This document shows, one piece after another, positions 4,697 through 27,015 of a stretch of 64,000 nucleotides of DNA. The DNA is taken from assembly GCA_963757255.1 (NCBI GenBank), contig CAVWQY010000004.1:172897-236896 (forward strand). Reading direction: 5' to 3'. Position 1 is the stretch's first letter. Each line of letters opens with the position of its first letter. The translations under genes were made by a program, and so were the position numbers. The notes beneath the pieces were generated by a model. That model was given only the letters and a program-made list of their open reading frames with translations. It was not told where the DNA came from and did not search any database. The DNA comes from an uncultured Thermoleophilia bacterium. Its GTDB lineage: Bacteria > Actinomycetota > Thermoleophilia > Gaiellales > Gaiellaceae.

Positions 4697-5752
4697 ATGC
4701 CGTCGACCGCCCGCCGTGCCGCCGTCGCGACTCTCGTCGCGGGCGGCATCATCGTCCTTGCACTCGCCCTGTGGAAGCTTCGGCTCGTCCTCGCGCTCCT
4801 CTTCTTCGCGTTGATCATCGCCGCGGCGATGCGCCCGGGGATCGAACGGCTCAAGCGCCGAGGCGTGCCACGTGGCGCCGGCCTCGCTCTCCACTACCTG
4901 GCCGTGCTCGCGGTGATCGCGGTCGGCCTCACGCTCGCCGTTCCGCGCGCCCTCGACCAGGTCAACCGTGCCCTCAGCCCGAGCGGGAAGGCGCAGATCG
5001 CGCGCCAGGCAGAGCACTCCACCGGGATCAAGCACGAGGTGCTGGCCGCGGTCCAGAAGCGGCTGACCCACCTGCCGACGAAGACGAAACTCGTGAAACC
5101 CGTCGAGCAGATCGGGGTTCGGGCGTTCGAGGTGATCATCGGGATCTTCTTCACGTTCGCCGCCGCGGCGTACTGGATCTTCGAGCGCGACAAGGCGATC
5201 GACCTCGTCTGCTCCCTGCTGCCGAGGCCGCGCCGCAAGCTGGTGCGCGACACCTGGGACCTCATCGACGCCAAGCTCGGCGCGTTCGTGCGCGGGCAGG
5301 TGCTGCTGATCCTGCTCATCGGAACGACGCTCTCGCTGCTGCTCTGGGCGGTCGGAGAGCCCTACTGGATCCTCGTCGGGATCTTCGCCGGCCTCGTCGA
5401 GGTGATTCCCGTGATCGGCCCGCTGGCCGCCGCCGGCCTGGCGATCGCCGTCGGCTTCACGGCCTCGGTCCATGTCGCGCTGCTCGCAGCAGCGTGCGTC
5501 GTCGCCGTGCGCATCTCCGAGGACTACCTCGTGATGCCCCGGATCCTCGGCGACGCGGTGGGGCTGTCGCCGCTGCTCGTGCTGACCTCCGTGACGATGA
5601 TGGGGATTCTCTTCAGTGGCTGGGCGGTGCTGTTCGCTGTGCCGCTCGCCGCGGTCCTCGTGACACTCTTCGATGTGATCCTGCGCGACATCGATCCCGC
5701 CGAGGAGGAGGTCCCCACGGTGATCTTCTCCGCGCGCGAGTCGGAGGCCTAG
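4697..5752 (+). CDS. AI-2E family (PerM/UPF0118) transporter
   Basis: ORF 4664..5752. Polytopic membrane protein with the family-typical C-terminal half ([29 protein letters not shown]). ATG at 4697 is preferred over TTG at 4664. Confidence 0.75.
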
Positions 5753-23968: not shown

Positions 23969-25942
23969 TCAGCGCACCAGGGCCGCCCTCCGGGCCGGGT
24001 GCACCCGTGTCGGCTGGTCGCCGACCACCGGCCGGTAGCCGGCGAAGCGGGACTCGAGCACGCCCTCGCCGCCGGTGAGCCCCGGCAGCTGCCGCTGCAG
24101 GTCTTGCGCCCGCGCCGCCGGCAGCACGGCCTCGAGCGTCGCGAGCTTCCCGGCCAGCGACGGCGCCTCGACGGAAGCGCCGAGCCGTGCAAGAGCGGCG
24201 GTCACGGAGCCCATGGCGGTCGCCGGCAGCTCGAGACCGACTCGATCGAACGGCTCGCAGACCACGGTTCCCGCGTCCTCGAGCGCCTGCCGGAGGACGA
24301 GCGGCGTGAGCTTGCGGAAATCGGCGGCCGTGCTGAGCGGCCCCCGTCGTGACGGAGGGCCGTCCGGGACGCTGTAGATGCACCTGGTCATCGTCACGAC
24401 GCAGTCGTTGACGAGCCAGCCGAAGCGGCCCTCCTGCAGCGCTTCGCGCACGTAGCCGTCCATGTGCTGCGTGAAGCTGTCGAGCGTCTTGTAGATGTAG
24501 AGAGGGACCGAGCTGTGGTCGAGCGGCAGCCGAAGCTCCACCCCCGACCCGGCCGGCGCCGGCTCGACGCGGAAGCCGATCGTCGCGAGATACGGATTCG
24601 ACTCCGCATGGAGGAGCTCGACCGCCTCGCCCGGGCCGATGGGCCGCTCGATGTAGATCGGCGTCGTCTCGTCGAAGGTGACGTCGAGGCCGAACTCGTC
24701 CGCCAGCGTCGCCTGGATGACTTCCTTCTGCACCTCGCCGTAGAGCGAGACCGAAAGCTCCCGGCGGGTGTCGTCCTGCCGTACGTTGATCAGCGGATCC
24801 TGCTCGGCGAGCTGCGCGAGCGCGACCCGGAGCCGTGCACCGTCGTCCGGATCGCCGGCGACGACGACCGACTCGAGCGTCGGCGGGGGAAACTGGTGCG
24901 CTTCACCCTCCGCCCCGGGCTCGCCGAACCGGTCGCCGATCTGGATCCCGCCGAGCCCCCAGAGCTTCGCGACCTCACCCGCGGACACGGACGGACGCTG
25001 AACTGCGGGCCCGTGCCGGAAGACCGCGACCGCGGTGACCTTGTCCTCGAGACCGCGGCCGAACTGCAGCCGGTCGCGGGTGCGGATCGTTCCCGAGAAC
25101 ATGCGGACGTACGCGATCTTCTCGCCGCTCCGTCCCCGTTCGATCTTGAAGACCGTCCCGGAGACGGGACCGTCGGGGTCGCCTGCGGCTGCCGGCAGCA
25201 ACTCCGCGAGCCCGGCCAGCAGCGGCTCCACCCCGGCGCCGGTGACGGCCGAGCCGAAGAAGACGGGATGCACGAGCGCCTGCGCCGTCTGCACTGCGAG
25301 CACCTCGCGCAGAAGGCGGTACGGGACATTCGCGTCGTCCTCGACGTACGCCGCCAGGATCGCCTCGTCGCGCTCCGCGAGCAGCTCGGCGACGCGAGCC
25401 CGGAACTCCGGATCGTCCGCTCCGGAGAGCCTGAAGTCGGCAGCGCGAGTGCCGAGCTCGCGCGTCGTCCCCATCGGGACGATTGCGGTCGTGAGGCGCT
25501 CGGCGATCGCCTGCAGCACACGCTCCTCAACGGCCCCGGCGCGGTCGATCTTGTTCACGAAGATCAGCGTCGGGATGCGGAGCCGCTGCAGGGCGCGCAT
25601 CAGGATGCGCGTCTGCGGCTGCACACCCTCCACGGCGGAGATCACGAGGACAGCGCCGTCGAGCACGCTCAGGACGCGTTCGACCTCTGCGATGAAATCC
25701 GGGTGCCCGGGCGTGTCGATCAGGTTGACGGTGACGTCGTCGATCGCGAACGACGCGACAGCCGATCTGATCGTGATTCCCCGCTGGCGTTCCAGCGGCA
25801 GAAAGTCGGTCTGGGTCGTGCCGGCATCGACGCTCCCGATCGCGTCGATCACACCCGCCGAATAGAGCAGGCGCTCCGTGAGAGTTGTCTTACCGGCGTC
25901 TACATGCGCCAGGATCCCCAAGTTCAACGTTTGCTGCAACAC
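23969..25942 (-). CDS. Tet(M)/Tet(O)/OtrA-like ribosomal-protection-type translational GTPase
   Basis: GTG start with GGAGGG 8 nt upstream. Motifs GILAHVDAGKTTLTE, DTPGH and NKID. EF-G-like domains without the full EF-G length (657 aa). TAADFRKLTPLVL matches the Tet(M) TPADFRMLAPIVL region. Confidence 0.8.
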   Translation of the reverse strand: MLQQTLNLGILAHVDAGKTTLTERLLYSAGVIDAIGSVDAGTTQTDFLPLERQRGITIRSAVASFAIDDVTVNLIDTPGHPDFIAEVERVLSVLDGAVLVISAVEGVQPQTRILMRALQRLRIPTLIFVNKIDRAGAVEERVLQAIAERLTTAIVPMGTTRELGTRAADFRLSGADDPEFRARVAELLAERDEAILAAYVEDDANVPYRLLREVLAVQTAQALVHPVFFGSAVTGAGVEPLLAGLAELLPAAAGDPDGPVSGTVFKIERGRSGEKIAYVRMFSGTIRTRDRLQFGRGLEDKVTAVAVFRHGPAVQRPSVSAGEVAKLWGLGGIQIGDRFGEPGAEGEAHQFPPPTLESVVVAGDPDDGARLRVALAQLAEQDPLINVRQDDTRRELSVSLYGEVQKEVIQATLADEFGLDVTFDETTPIYIERPIGPGEAVELLHAESNPYLATIGFRVEPAPAGSGVELRLPLDHSSVPLYIYKTLDSFTQHMDGYVREALQEGRFGWLVNDCVVTMTRCIYSVPDGPPSRRGPLSTAADFRKLTPLVLRQALEDAGTVVCEPFDRVGLELPATAMGSVTAALARLGASVEAPSLAGKLATLEAVLPAARAQDLQRQLPGLTGGEGVLESRFAGYRPVVGDQPTRVHPARRAALVR

Positions 25943-26003
25943 GCGTCATACCCTCCGAATAGGTCATGAAGCCCTTTTCGATTGAGATGAACGCGTGACG
26001 CAT
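25890..26003 (-). promoter_or_regulatory. candidate leader peptide uORF (37 codons) overlapping the SD and start of the Tet(M)-like gene
   Basis: AAGGAG lies 5 nt upstream of ATG 26003. Sequence MRHAFISIEKGFMTYSEGMTRVAANVELGDPGACRRR. Codons 17-18 are the main gene's SD, and the uORF ends 50 nt inside the main ORF. Confidence 0.4.
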
Positions 26004-26051
26004 GCTCGCTCCTTGGTCGATCGGCGCAACGTGGTGCTCGCGTGATGATAC

Positions 26052-26083
26052 GGGAAAACGATGCGAGGCCCTGGGGGCCTCGC
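26052..26083 (-). terminator. hairpin downstream of tRNA-Ala
   Basis: On the minus strand: GCGAGGCC-CCCAG-GGCCTCGC followed by AUCGUUUUCC. Confidence 0.5.
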
Positions 26084-26089
26084 GGTGGA

Positions 26090-26599
26090 TCAGGTGGACC
26101 CAGTCGGGCTCGAACCGACGACCTCCGCCATGCCATGGCGGCGCTCTCCCAGCTGAGCTATGGGCCCCAGCGTGGTCTGCGGCAGTTTAGCGCCGAACTC
26201 GTAGTCGCTTGCCAGGCGTATGCCAAGCCGCTGATTGTTCCTTGGCGCCGAGATCCGCAGATGCAGTTGAAGTGCGCCGTCGATCGCCTCGTACGGGATC
26301 AGGTAGCAGCGATCGAGATCGGGACAATAGGCGGCGAGAGCGTCGAACTCGCCGTGCACATACGGTCGCCGGACGAGACCGCTCCGCGCCCGGCGGGTCG
26401 AGTACGAGCGGATGATCACCACCTCACCGTGCAAGGGCGCCCATTTGCATTGGACGCGGAGTAGTCGCTCGCCGGTGTCGAAGATCAGGTCGTACCTACC
26501 GCCCTCGATCGCCGGACGATAAACGTCGTAGCTCATCTCGAGGCCGGCTTTCATGATCGCTGCCTCGGCGATCGCGCCCTTCTGATTCGTCGTCAACAC
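26090..26599 (-). CDS. group I intron-associated-type PD-(D/E)XK endonuclease homolog; ORF runs through the tRNA-Ala gene
   Basis: GTG 26599. Sequence QKGAIAEAAIMKAGLEMSYDVYRPAIEGGRYDLIFD..LLRVQCKW (D..QxK core). The last 26 codons (LGPIAQLGERRHGMAEVVGSSPTGST) are the tRNA sequence. GC3 is visibly lower than in neighbouring genes. Confidence 0.7.
   Translation of the reverse strand: MLTTNQKGAIAEAAIMKAGLEMSYDVYRPAIEGGRYDLIFDTGERLLRVQCKWAPLHGEVVIIRSYSTRRARSGLVRRPYVHGEFDALAAYCPDLDRCYLIPYEAIDGALQLHLRISAPRNNQRLGIRLASDYEFGAKLPQTTLGPIAQLGERRHGMAEVVGSSPTGST
26095..26167 (-). tRNA. tRNA-Ala (anticodon GGC)
   Basis: 73 nt folded by hand: GGGCCCA-TA-GCTC-AGCTGGGA-GAGC-G-CCGCC-ATGGCAT-GGCGG-AGGTC-GTCGG-TTCGAGC-CCGAC-TGGGTCC-A. 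Has the G3:U70 Ala identity pair. CCA is not encoded. Confidence 0.95.
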
Positions 26600-26658
26600 C
26601 GACAACAGCCTACCCGCGCGATCGGACGGAATGTTGCCCGTCCTGGCGACAGGTCCGG

Positions 26659-27015
26659 TTAGGCCGTGGCCGCTTCGACGGCCTCGTGCGGGACGTCGTC
26701 CCAGAGGTCTTCGAGGCGGTAGAACGTGCGCGCTTCCGGCGTGAAGACATGGAGGACGACGTCGGTGTAGTCGCCGATGATCCACGTCGCTTCGGCCGCG
26801 CCCTCGGTCGAGCGGGGGAGCAGCGCGTTCTCGTGCTTCAGGCGTGCGTGCACCTCGTCCCAGATGCTCTTCACCTGGCGGGGGTTGCCGCCGGTGCACA
26901 CGACGAAGTAGTCCGTGTAGGCGCACACGGGCCGCATGTCGAGGATGACCACGTCGCGGGCGAGCTTGTCCTGGGCGAGCGCCGCGATCCGGCGAGCTTG
27001 TTCGATAGGGCTCAA
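26659..27015 (-). CDS. rsfS: ribosome silencing factor RsfS (iojap)
   Basis: DVVILDMRPVCAYTDYFVVCTGGNPRQVKSI..DYTDVVLHVFTPEARTFYRLEDLW. Confidence 0.93.
   Translation of the reverse strand: MSPIEQARRIAALAQDKLARDVVILDMRPVCAYTDYFVVCTGGNPRQVKSIWDEVHARLKHENALLPRSTEGAAEATWIIGDYTDVVLHVFTPEARTFYRLEDLWDDVPHEAVEAATA

What the first reader, a model, noticed from the sequence alone, without database searches (positions are those of the whole stretch)
26090..26660. Low-GC3 PD-(D/E)XK endonuclease gene between rsfS and tRNA-Ala, with an ORF that reads through the entire tRNA
A 170-codon ORF (GTG 26599) lies between rsfS and tRNA-Ala(GGC). It has the hallmarks of the group I intron-associated PD-(D/E)XK endonuclease family (KGAIAEAAI..YDLIFD..LRVQCKW).

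- Its third-codon positions are visibly richer in A/T than any neighbouring gene (tat, gtt, aaa, caa, aat, ata codons). This argues for foreign origin.
- It has no stop codon of its own. The frame enters the co-oriented tRNA gene at its first base and stays open across all 73 nt. The protein therefore ends LGPIAQLGERRHGMAEVVGSSPTGST, stopping 2 nt past the tRNA 3' end.

Two readings are possible. The tRNA-templated tail may be translated. Alternatively, RNase P/Z processing of the co-transcript would leave a non-stop mRNA, a built-in way to keep a selfish nuclease at very low level. A nuclease-type selfish gene docked directly on a tRNA, with no integrase and no attachment-site (att) repeat, is not explained by the standard tRNA-island model.
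Basis: partly seen in the sequence, partly recalled or inferred. Interest (0 to 1): 0.65.

Follow-up and report, generated by a model that had tools for sequence, protein, structure and literature searches.

The report
Selfish nuclease gene overlapping tRNA-Ala
A small DNA-cutting gene of the homing-endonuclease type sits directly against an essential alanine tRNA gene and reads through that tRNA's promoter and the tRNA itself; among related soil bacteria the nuclease and the front part of the tRNA are swapped, broken and lost together, and the tRNA's anticodon stem changes unusually fast.

Summary
A 169-codon minus-strand ORF (GTG 26599 to TGA 26092-26090) encodes an I-Ssp6803I-type PD-(D/E)XK nuclease. 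It has no stop before tRNA-Ala(GGC) and stays open across it.

This is not a local error. All 120 closest database homologues and 78 of 82 loci run into the same tRNA.

The ORF's last codons also contain the tRNA's own -10 promoter box, which is present in empty sites too.

A scan chosen by RsfS alone shows a patchy pattern: 24 intact copies, 8 broken copies and 28 sites without the gene, some with remnants. Nuclease identity is decoupled from flank identity (RsfS 94-100% identical, nuclease 46-55%). The swapped block runs from about nuclease codon 5 to the tRNA anticodon arm or the tRNA end. The nuclease is under purifying selection (dN/dS about 0.1), and its GC3 is lower than that of rsfS in 94/94 loci.

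The tRNA's anticodon stem is hypervariable and always compensated, and its sequence correlates with nuclease presence.

Best reading: a free-standing homing-endonuclease/tRNA cassette, probably targeting the anticodon-arm palindrome. The tRNA-derived tail is not conserved in length and is modelled as disordered. Whether it is translated, or the mRNA becomes non-stop, is untested.

The parts
26659..27015 (-). rsfS. This is the left flank of the cassette. In empty sites its stop codon is followed within 20-70 nt by tRNA-Ala.
   Evidence: Pfam RsfS E=2e-30; empty sites.
26600..26658 (-). Spacer and 5' UTR between the rsfS stop and the nuclease start. In pairs of divergent nuclease alleles (L119/L124, L154/L156), the corresponding stretch stays nearly identical up to about codon 5 of the nuclease.
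   Evidence: The predicted hairpin here is not significant (z=-1.2).
26168..26599 (-). Nuclease-coding part (aa 1-144) of the PD-(D/E)XK homing-endonuclease-type gene. Catalytic and invariant residues E12, D37, Q50, C51 and K52 are present.
   Evidence: Pfam PF11645 E=1.9e-29; PDB 2OST E=1.8e-17; AlphaFold pLDDT 86-95 for residues 1-130 and Foldseek 2OST E=6.5e-12; invariant columns; dN/dS 0.02-0.16.
26184..26191 (-). G-C-TAAACT: a -10-like box (GnTANNNT) for tRNA-Ala, lying inside nuclease codons Ala-Lys-Leu.
   Evidence: A TANNNT box lies 15-29 nt upstream of tRNA +1 in 135/135 loci, occupied and empty, with G two bases upstream in 129. The background expectation is 0.05 per window.
26168..26183 (-). 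Leader between the -10 box and tRNA +1. It is still inside the ORF (codons PQTTL).
26095..26167 (-). tRNA-Ala(GGC), with G3:U70 and discriminator A. It is translated in frame as GPIAQLGERRHGMAEVVGSSPTGS.
   Evidence: ARAGORN; Rfam 61.2 bits; G3:U70 in 136/136 relatives.
26125..26141 (-). Anticodon arm CCGCC-ATGGCAT-GGCGG. In DNA this is a 7-3-7 palindrome. It is the proposed nuclease-resistant allele of the proposed target.
   Evidence: 28 different fully compensated stems occur among 136 loci. The arm type correlates with nuclease presence. The right edge of the swapped block lies just 3' of it. That it is the target is inference.
26090..26094 (-). Encoded CC, then the first in-frame stop, TGA.
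26053..26083 (-). Intrinsic-terminator-like hairpin GCGAGGCCC-cca-GGGCCTCGC followed by a T run. It would end both tRNA transcripts and nuclease read-through transcripts.

Best explanation
The ORF is a free-standing homing-endonuclease-type gene of the I-Ssp6803I / PDDEXK_5 family. It is wedged between rsfS and the promoter of the essential tRNA-Ala(GGC) gene.

- Cassette: the nuclease gene and at least the 5' two-thirds of the tRNA, through the anticodon arm, form one allelic cassette. Among Thermoleophilia this cassette is gained, replaced by very different alleles, broken and deleted at this one site. Gain and replacement are inferred; decay and deletion are seen directly.
- Missing stop: the nuclease part ends at about ..DYEF. 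From there the frame runs on through host sequence that cannot change freely: the tRNA's -10 box, its short leader and the tRNA itself. The ORF therefore ends wherever the first stop happens to fall.
- Target (inferred): the enzyme cuts DNA at the palindromic anticodon-arm segment of tRNA-Ala alleles other than its own. Repair from a nuclease-bearing copy co-converts the arm, leader, promoter and nuclease gene.
- Expression (inferred): nuclease mRNA necessarily extends into the tRNA. RNase P cleavage at tRNA +1 would remove every available stop codon. That would leave a non-stop message handled by tmRNA, so little nuclease accumulates. The tRNA-derived tail has no function as protein.
For: Identity:
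- Pfam E=1.9e-29; 2OST by sequence and by fold; PADLOC model 'homing endonuclease' E=5e-13.

Unit of conservation:
- tRNA-Ala(GGC) starts 0-30 nt after the nuclease domain in 82/82 loci. This holds even where rsfS is 2.5 kb away or on the other strand.

Patchiness:
- In a set chosen by RsfS alone there are 24 intact copies, 8 frameshifted or partial copies and 28 sites without the gene.
- Presence/absence needs at least 21 changes on the RsfS tree.
- The window's nearest relative, L091 (RsfS 91%), has only a 111-nt remnant.

Allele replacement:
- Spearman correlation of nuclease identity with RsfS identity is 0.28. Pairs with RsfS 94-100% identical carry nucleases 46-55% identical.
- L154/L156 have 600 nt of 100% identical upstream flank and 87-97% identical downstream flank around a block about 50% identical. 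In L119/L124 the block ends between the anticodon arm and the T arm.

Protein under selection:
- dN/dS is 0.02-0.16. The nuclease dS is 2-4 times that of rsfS in the same genome pairs. GC3 is lower than in rsfS in 94/94 loci.

Promoter:
- The GnTANNNT box is present in 135/135 loci, including empty sites. All remnants keep the ORF's 3' end, where the box lies.

Arm:
- 28 stems with H=4.0 bits, against 1.95 bits for the acceptor stem and 2.18 bits for the T stem.
- Among related nuclease alleles 27% of anticodon-stem positions differ, against 2% of T-stem and 1% of acceptor positions.
- Loop type CTGGCAG occurs in 24/28 nuclease-less loci and 8/32 nuclease-bearing loci, p=2e-6.

Tail:
- Stops fall at tRNA position 8 (22 loci) or 43 (5 loci), at 76-256, or 1.1-1.4 kb downstream. 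pLDDT is below 50 for residues 137-169.

Family habit:
- All 12 phage or virus relatives examined lie in tRNA clusters. Four abut or overlap the next tRNA.
Against: - No cleavage, homing or transcript data exist. The target, the direction of the arm effect (sensitive or resistant) and the non-stop fate are all inferred.
- 36 of 102 intact loci carry the same CTGGCAG loop type as empty sites. A single specificity aimed at that arm cannot explain everything.
- No clean empty site was seen with flanks more than 95% identical to an occupied one. Only decay is seen directly. Gain rests on incongruence and block replacement.
- The association statistics are not corrected for shared ancestry.
- Strong purifying selection and presence in 484 GTDB species genomes would also fit a host-useful gene.
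- Four of 82 loci have a stop before the tRNA, so the overlap is not obligatory.
Confidence: 0.7

Rival explanations
1. It is a domesticated or host-useful nuclease, for example one that restricts incoming DNA or phages carrying foreign tRNA-Ala alleles, or a repair enzyme. On this reading it is kept by host-level selection, sits next to the tRNA for regulatory reasons, and is simply lost in some lineages.
For: dN/dS is about 0.1 with invariant catalytic residues. There are 484 relatives in GTDB species genomes. The model library of defence systems lists this fold. Some lineages have a Phd/YefM-like antitoxin ORF right after the tRNA.
Against: About half of RsfS-matched sites lack the gene or carry broken copies. 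Deeply divergent alleles sit in near-identical flanks. GC3 is persistently low. The closest characterised relative is a homing endonuclease. No partner genes are conserved besides the tRNA.
Confidence: 0.15
2. It is an RNA-level toxin with a linked antidote. The nuclease cuts the anticodon arm of tRNA-Ala(GGC) RNA, and the linked tRNA allele is a resistant version. On this reading arm hypervariability reflects escape at the RNA level.
For: The hypervariable, always-compensated anticodon stem is tightly linked to the nuclease. Some PD-(D/E)XK enzymes act on RNA (general knowledge).
Against: I-Ssp6803I is a DNA endonuclease that recognises a pseudo-palindromic duplex (PMC3384342). The edges of the swapped DNA block at the arm point to a DNA event. 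In these loci a genome shows one tRNA-Ala(GGC) copy, so no sensitive RNA target would share the cell.
Confidence: 0.06
3. The tRNA-templated C-terminal tail is a functional part of the protein.
For: In frame A the tail is 'conserved' in 105 of the 120 closest homologues.
Against: That conservation is that of the tRNA. The tail is 2 aa long in 22 loci, ends inside the tRNA in 5, and runs for up to 1.4 kb in others. Phage relatives stop at ..DYEL. pLDDT is below 50.
Confidence: 0.03
4. It is an artefact: a chance open frame or a sequencing error that removed the stop codon in this assembly.
For: High-GC genomes have long chance ORFs (one search lists many).
Against: There is a strong profile match and purifying selection. 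The same lack of a stop appears in hundreds of independent assemblies.
Confidence: 0.01

Closest known systems
I-Ssp6803I (PDB 2OST), the PD-(D/E)XK homing endonuclease of the group I intron in the Synechocystis tRNA-fMet gene
   Same: Same Pfam family and fold. It has the D..QxK core and similar size, and it is tied to a tRNA gene. It recognises a long pseudo-palindromic target as a tetramer (PMC3384342). From my own knowledge, that target is the anticodon-arm region of the tRNA gene.
   Different: The gene here is not inside an intron. The tRNA is uninterrupted, and no group I intron was found by Rfam at E<=1. The gene lies upstream of the tRNA, overlaps its promoter and body, is about 28% identical to I-Ssp6803I, and occurs in Thermoleophilia rather than cyanobacteria. 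Its activity is untested.
Free-standing homing endonucleases of phages ('intronless homing'), e.g. T4 seg and mob genes; SegB lies in the T4 tRNA gene cluster (PMC2988022, PMC13096335)
   Same: It is an intergenic nuclease gene next to conserved genes. It shows presence/absence polymorphism, co-conversion of flanking markers, and a tRNA-cluster location.
   Different: SegB is a GIY-YIG enzyme in a phage. Here it is a PD-(D/E)XK enzyme in a bacterial chromosome, with the ORF fused onto a promoter and tRNA and with deep allelic lineages.
Stand-alone PDDEXK_5 genes of phages (80 counted as homing endonucleases in Jug jumbo phages, PMC12880540; loci L083-L090 and L171-L175 here)
   Same: They are homologous at about 30-35% identity. 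They end at the same ..DYEL position. They sit in tRNA arrays, and several abut or overlap the next tRNA.
   Different: Two examined at sequence level (L083, L084) keep their own stop 1-5 nt before the tRNA, while My1 and Sf-FR1 stop within the tRNA's first 7-21 nt. The tRNA partner varies (Ile, Val, Pro, Asn and others). The tRNA link was not noted in the papers I could read.
tRNA-gene genomic islands and integrative elements
   Same: They too sit next to a tRNA gene and have foreign-looking composition.
   Different: Those insert at the tRNA 3' end and carry an integrase and att repeats. This element is 0.5 kb, sits at the 5' side, and has no integrase or repeats.
Non-stop mRNAs rescued by tmRNA; mRNA-tRNA co-transcripts cut by RNase P (e.g. 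E. coli secG-leuU, own knowledge)
   Same: An mRNA is followed directly by a tRNA on one transcript. Cleavage by RNase P would define the mRNA's 3' end.
   Different: In known co-transcripts the ORF has its own stop. Here cleavage would remove all stops. This step is inferred, not shown.

Membership tests
PDDEXK_5 / I-Ssp6803I nuclease family | Profile match above the curated threshold over the whole domain | tested here: met
   PF11645 scores 102.9 bits against a cut-off of 26.1, covering profile positions 2-137 of 138. The PDB profile search finds 2OST at E=1.8e-17.
PDDEXK_5 / I-Ssp6803I nuclease family | PD-(D/E)XK fold with the catalytic D...QxK and an N-terminal acidic residue | tested here: met
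   E12, D37, Q50 and K52 are invariant in 34 relatives. D, Q and K are invariant even against phage relatives. The AlphaFold model's best PDB match is 2OST, TM 0.63/0.70.
PDDEXK_5 / I-Ssp6803I nuclease family | Sequence-specific double-strand DNA cleavage of a long pseudo-palindromic site, as a tetramer | not testable with these tools
   This needs enzyme assays. The proposed site, the 7-3-7 anticodon-arm palindrome, is an inference.
Group I intron-encoded homing endonuclease | Gene lies inside a self-splicing intron that interrupts the target gene | tested here: not met
   The tRNA is continuous and scores 61 bits. No intron family was found within 5 kb at E<=1.
Free-standing homing endonuclease (intronless homing) | Nuclease gene of a homing-endonuclease family lies in an intergenic site beside a conserved gene | tested here: met
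   It lies between rsfS and tRNA-Ala.
Free-standing homing endonuclease (intronless homing) | Occupied, empty and degenerate versions of the same site occur among close relatives | tested here: met
   There are 24 intact, 8 broken and 28 sites without the gene, including remnants, in the RsfS-chosen set. Presence/absence needs at least 21 state changes on the RsfS tree.
Free-standing homing endonuclease (intronless homing) | Gene history is incongruent with its flanks, with block replacement and co-converted flanking markers | tested here: met
Free-standing homing endonuclease (intronless homing) | The enzyme cuts the nuclease-less allele near the insertion point, and its own allele is resistant | not testable with these tools
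   There is only indirect support: the arm/occupancy association (p=2e-6, uncorrected for ancestry) and the block edge at the arm.
tRNA-targeting integrative island | Integrase gene and direct att repeats that duplicate the tRNA 3' end | tested here: not met
   The inserted block is about 0.47 kb and holds one gene (gap distribution; alignments). It lies at the tRNA 5' side.
Non-stop mRNA / tmRNA substrate | No in-frame stop before the processed 3' end of the mRNA | tested here: inconclusive
   The sequence shows no stop before tRNA +1 in 78/82 loci. Whether RNase P cutting defines the mRNA end is not testable here.

The most novel reading that the evidence does not exclude
An essential tRNA gene is caught in a DNA-level arms race with a selfish nuclease. 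Many nuclease lineages with different specificities each travel with a tRNA-Ala(GGC) allele whose anticodon-stem palindrome they do not cut, and they convert other alleles. This would keep dozens of ancient nuclease/tRNA allele pairs in circulation, as at a self/non-self recognition locus. It would also drive compensated turnover of the anticodon stem more than 10 times faster than the other stems. The ORF's fusion to the tRNA promoter and tRNA would then serve two ends. It protects the element's 3' end from deletion, and through RNase P cutting it turns the message into a non-stop mRNA that keeps the nuclease scarce.
Probability: 0.35. Interest if true: 0.85.

Novelty: new variant of a known kind. 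Interest (0 to 1): 0.72.

Why it matters
Only one PD-(D/E)XK homing endonuclease has been characterised. Reviews place its close relatives in cyanobacteria.

This locus shows a large chromosomal branch of that family: 484 species genomes, and more than 7,000 protein clusters family-wide. It behaves as a free-standing homing element locked onto one essential tRNA gene.

- It gives a natural system for asking how a selfish nuclease coexists with an indispensable target. It borrows the target's promoter region as coding sequence and carries a compensated, apparently resistant tRNA allele.
- It suggests that selection at the DNA level can shape tRNA stem sequences.
- It offers a panel of dozens of related enzymes with likely different 17-bp specificities, which is useful for studying or engineering recognition.
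- It warns annotators that ORFs running through tRNA genes can be real genes.

Tried and rejected
- Vertical inheritance. The first two contexts and the parallel fall of nuclease and RsfS identity in the nuclease-selected genome set suggested a vertically inherited, domesticated gene. The RsfS-selected scan overturned this.
- Classical promoter. A sigma-70 consensus scan found no -35/-10 promoter. The box is a -10-only GnTANNNT type, seen only by comparison.
- 5' UTR hairpin (26658-26600). Its fold energy is not better than shuffles (z=-1.2), so I dropped it.
- Covariation between nuclease residues and arm bases. Mutual information gives only a weak cluster at residues 65-77 (z 3-5, no correction for multiple tests or ancestry). 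This is a lead, not evidence.
- Control tRNA. No other tRNA occurs in any fetched locus, so the control is the other stems of the same tRNA.
- Viral scan with an alignment of phage relatives. I inspected 12 individual phage loci instead.
- NCBIfam. No match.
- Primary I-Ssp6803I papers (PMC3008403, PMC1864971). They are not held. The statement that its target is the tRNA-fMet anticodon arm, and the resemblance of the half-sites TCGGGCT and TCTGGCT, rest on my own recall.
Full report
**1. The observation**

The minus strand carries an ORF from GTG 26599 to TGA 26092-26090 (169 aa). Residues 3-135 match Pfam PF11645 (PDDEXK_5) end to end (E=1.9e-29).

tRNA-Ala(GGC) occupies 26167-26095 and is followed by an encoded CC. 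Codon 145 of the ORF is tRNA positions 1-3. The frame stays open through the tRNA and stops directly after the CC.

rsfS (27015-26659), a nadD-like gene and obg lie upstream. An EF-G-like GTPase gene lies downstream.

GC3 of the nuclease is 0.785, against 0.87-0.91 for the neighbours. No group I intron or other RNA family lies within 5 kb.

**2. Not a local accident**

The protein search found 2237 relatives. All 120 best ones, down to 58% identity, run into the same tRNA. Of these, 105 carry a tail G[PA][IV]AQLGER...GSSP.GS, which is the tRNA translated. The other 15 end in '..GP*', a different frame that stops at T8-A9-G10 of the tRNA.

To avoid circularity I built an alignment of nuclease domains cut before the tail (A1) and scanned one genome per species. 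That gave 484 relatives. The best 80 are all from Thermoleophilia-type MAGs (Gaiellaceae, Gaiellales, Thermoleophilaceae, Solirubrobacterales).

In all 82 loci, window included, tRNA-Ala(GGC) begins 0-30 nt after the domain on the same strand.
- 58 loci read through in the window's frame.
- 22 stop at tRNA position 8.
- 2 use the third frame.
- Only 4 have a stop before the tRNA.

rsfS is usually adjacent. In about 17 loci it is 2.5 kb away or on the other strand, and the nuclease-tRNA pair still stays together. The pair is therefore the conserved unit.

**3. The ORF also covers the tRNA promoter**

Every one of 135 loci has a TANNNT hexamer whose first base lies 15-29 nt upstream of tRNA +1. 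The hexamers are TACACT, TAGACT, TAAACT, TACAAT and similar. G sits two bases before the hexamer in 129 loci. This is the -10-only promoter form common in Actinobacteria (own knowledge). The background density predicts 0.05 such boxes per window.

The same box follows the rsfS stop codon in sites that lack the nuclease (for example L138: TGA-g-CTACACT-14 nt-tRNA). It is therefore the tRNA's own promoter element.

In occupied sites it is read as the codons Ala-(Thr/Lys/Arg)-Leu of the motif '..EFGATL'. In the window it is G-C-TAAACT at 26191-26184.

Phage relatives end at the homologous '..DYEL' with their own stop. In Solirubrobacterales-type loci the tRNA starts at exactly that point.

So the nuclease proper ends at about residue 135. 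The rest of the ORF is promoter, leader and tRNA read as codons. A terminator-like hairpin follows the tRNA (26083-26063).

**4. Mobile, not housekeeping**

I scanned metagenome contigs with RsfS alone (A2). Among 60 loci with a readable tRNA:
- 24 have an intact nuclease gene.
- 8 have a frameshifted or partial one.
- 28 have none.

In 21 loci the rsfS stop is followed by the tRNA after only 20-69 nt. Others hold recognisable remnants, and every remnant keeps the ORF's 3' end, which carries the -10 box (L091, L099, L104, L105, L122, L169). L153 is a deletion derivative of an L046-like allele with an identical tRNA.

Presence/absence needs at least 21 changes on an RsfS tree of 127 loci. The window's nearest relative, L091 (RsfS 91%), has only a 111-nt remnant.

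Nuclease identity barely tracks RsfS identity (Spearman 0.28). Pairs with RsfS 94-100% identical carry nucleases 46-55% identical. The 97 nucleases fall into 79 clusters at 75% identity.

Alignments show clean block replacement.
- L154/L156: 600 nt upstream are 100% identical, and the downstream flank is 87-97% identical. The nuclease, the whole tRNA and about 30 nt of trailer are about 50% identical.
- L119/L124: the divergent block runs from about nuclease codon 5 to the tRNA variable loop. The T arm and everything after it are about 97% identical.

The protein is nevertheless under purifying selection (dN/dS 0.02-0.16). Its dS is 2-4 times that of rsfS in the same genome pairs. Its GC3 is lower than that of rsfS in 94 of 94 loci (0.74 against 0.91).

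Occupied, empty and decayed sites, incongruent history and co-converted flanks together are the signature of a free-standing homing endonuclease.

**5. The tRNA carries a mark of the nuclease**

Across 136 tRNAs, variability differs sharply between parts of the molecule:

| Part of tRNA | Distinct forms | Entropy (bits) |
|---|---|---|
| D stem | 1 | 0 |
| Acceptor stem | 6 | 1.95 |
| T stem | 8 | 2.18 |
| Anticodon stem | 28 | 4.0 |

- The anticodon stem is fully paired in every tRNA: 134 have five Watson-Crick pairs and 2 have one G-U pair. G3:U70 is present in all 136.
- Up to 15 different arms share one identical acceptor and T-arm backbone.
- Positions 32 and 38 are always complementary (C-G 60, A-T 53, G-C 23). 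The arm is therefore a 7-3-7 palindrome in DNA.
- Among 18 pairs of related nuclease alleles, 27% of anticodon-stem positions differ, against 2% of T-stem and 1% of acceptor positions. L014/L015 have nucleases 93% identical and differ at all 10 stem positions, with the rest of the tRNA identical.
- In the window's own nuclease clade the arm CCGCC-ATGGCAT-GGCGG is unchanged although dS is about 1.
- Nuclease-less loci carry almost only T[CT]TGG or TCGCG stems with a CTGGCAG loop, across 8 backbones. The few exceptions are loci with visible remnants.
- In the RsfS-chosen set the CTGGCAG loop is in 24/28 nuclease-less loci and 8/32 nuclease-bearing loci. Fisher p=2e-6, not corrected for ancestry.

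The one characterised family member recognises a long pseudo-palindromic site as a tetramer (PMC3384342). From memory, that site is the anticodon-arm region of its tRNA gene. Together with the block edge at the arm, this makes the arm the most likely target.

Whether the common nuclease-less arm is the sensitive or the resistant form cannot be decided. Because 36 of 102 intact loci also carry that loop type, several specificities would be needed.

**6. The tail and translation**

- The ORF end is not conserved. Stops fall at tRNA position 8, at position 43 (a TAG in the anticodon stem, 5 loci), at 76-256, or 1.1-1.4 kb downstream.
- AlphaFold models residues 1-136 confidently and residues 137-169 at pLDDT about 40. 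The best PDB match is I-Ssp6803I (E=6.5e-12).
- The tail is therefore a by-product.
- Any transcript that carries the ORF must continue into the tRNA. RNase P cutting at +1 would remove every stop in every frame variant. That would give a non-stop mRNA, which should be rescued by tmRNA with the product degraded.
It is inference only. Four loci with a stop before the tRNA show that the overlap is not obligatory.

**7. Family habit**

Distant relatives (about 30-35% identical) in 12 phage or archaeal-virus loci all lie on the same strand as neighbouring tRNA genes. The nearest tRNA is within 200 nt in 11 of them.
- In Pectobacterium phage My1 the CDS overlaps tRNA-Ile by 7 nt.
- In Synechococcus phage Sf-FR1 it overlaps tRNA-Val by 21 nt.
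- In two IMG/VR contigs it stops 1-5 nt before tRNA-Ile or tRNA-Pro.

A search of cluster representatives found 7129 clusters (E<=1e-3). Many of the top 150 carry translated tRNA-Ala tails in one frame or another.

**8. Comparison with what is known, and novelty**

PF11645 is known as the I-Ssp6803I family (PMC3424549, PMC3384342). Stand-alone copies have been counted as homing endonucleases in jumbo phages (PMC12880540). Free-standing homing endonucleases in phage tRNA clusters are known from another fold (SegB; PMC2988022, PMC13096335).

Five literature searches found no description of:
- the chromosomal tRNA-Ala-linked branch;
- the overlap of the ORF with promoter and tRNA;
- the allelic cassettes;
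- the hypervariable anticodon stem.

I rate it a new variant of a known kind.

**9. Verdict**

| Claim | Confidence |
|---|---|
| The observation | Confirmed |
| Selfish homing-type nuclease/tRNA cassette | about 0.7 |
| Anticodon arm as the target | about 0.45 |
| Non-stop expression control | about 0.4 |

Interest: 0.72.

Noticed in passing
L132, L139, L153 (between the rsfS stop and the tRNA; alignment of L153, sequences): In nuclease-less loci of one sublineage, the space is filled by 2-4 copies of an 11-bp palindrome, GGGAC(T/A)GTCCC, in inverted pairs. This could be a small repeat element or a protein-binding site that has replaced most of the nuclease gene.
   Followed up: no
Representative proteins P0129, P0143, P0147, P0149, P0150, P0153, P0169, P0174, P0175, P0181, P0209, P0210, P0238, P0269: In some lineages the read-through ORF continues past the tRNA into a sequence with a motif I recognise from memory (not profile-tested) as Phd/YefM-antitoxin-like (..VTRRGKP.ARL.P). 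A toxin-antitoxin-type gene therefore often lies right after the tRNA in those genomes.
   Followed up: no
L087 (Salmonella phage SM5), L171 (Klebsiella phage FKP10), L089 (halovirus HSTV-4), L173 (Pseudoalteromonas phage J2-1): Four unrelated viruses have the PDDEXK_5 gene next to tRNA-Asn(GTT). In three it starts 2-21 nt after the tRNA, and in one the tRNA lies 45 nt downstream. This hints at a second preferred tRNA partner in the family.
   Followed up: partly
L084 (IMG/VR contig), 4895-5462 and 2324-2401: The phage nuclease gene is flanked by two different tRNA-Ile(GAT) genes. The same array holds a tRNA with anticodon CTA (amber-reading; ARAGORN labels it Pyl).
   Followed up: no
Nuclease residues 65-77 (window 26407-26369, minus strand): The basic loop YSTRRARSGLVRR holds the alignment columns (S65, S67, T68, A71, L75, R77) that covary most with anticodon-arm bases 29-32 (z 3-5). 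These differ from the columns that track clade (N5, S131, Y133). The signal is weak and uncorrected.
   Followed up: partly
window 25700-26100: GC falls to 0.60-0.62 across the tRNA trailer, the intergenic region and the first about 250 nt of the EF-G-like GTPase gene (23969-25942, minus strand). This low-GC stretch extends beyond the nuclease gene itself.
   Followed up: no
L011 and L021: The nuclease frame stays open for 1.4 kb and 1.1 kb past the tRNA start. In L021, ARAGORN also reports an irregular anticodon loop (a one-base insertion in the arm).
   Followed up: no
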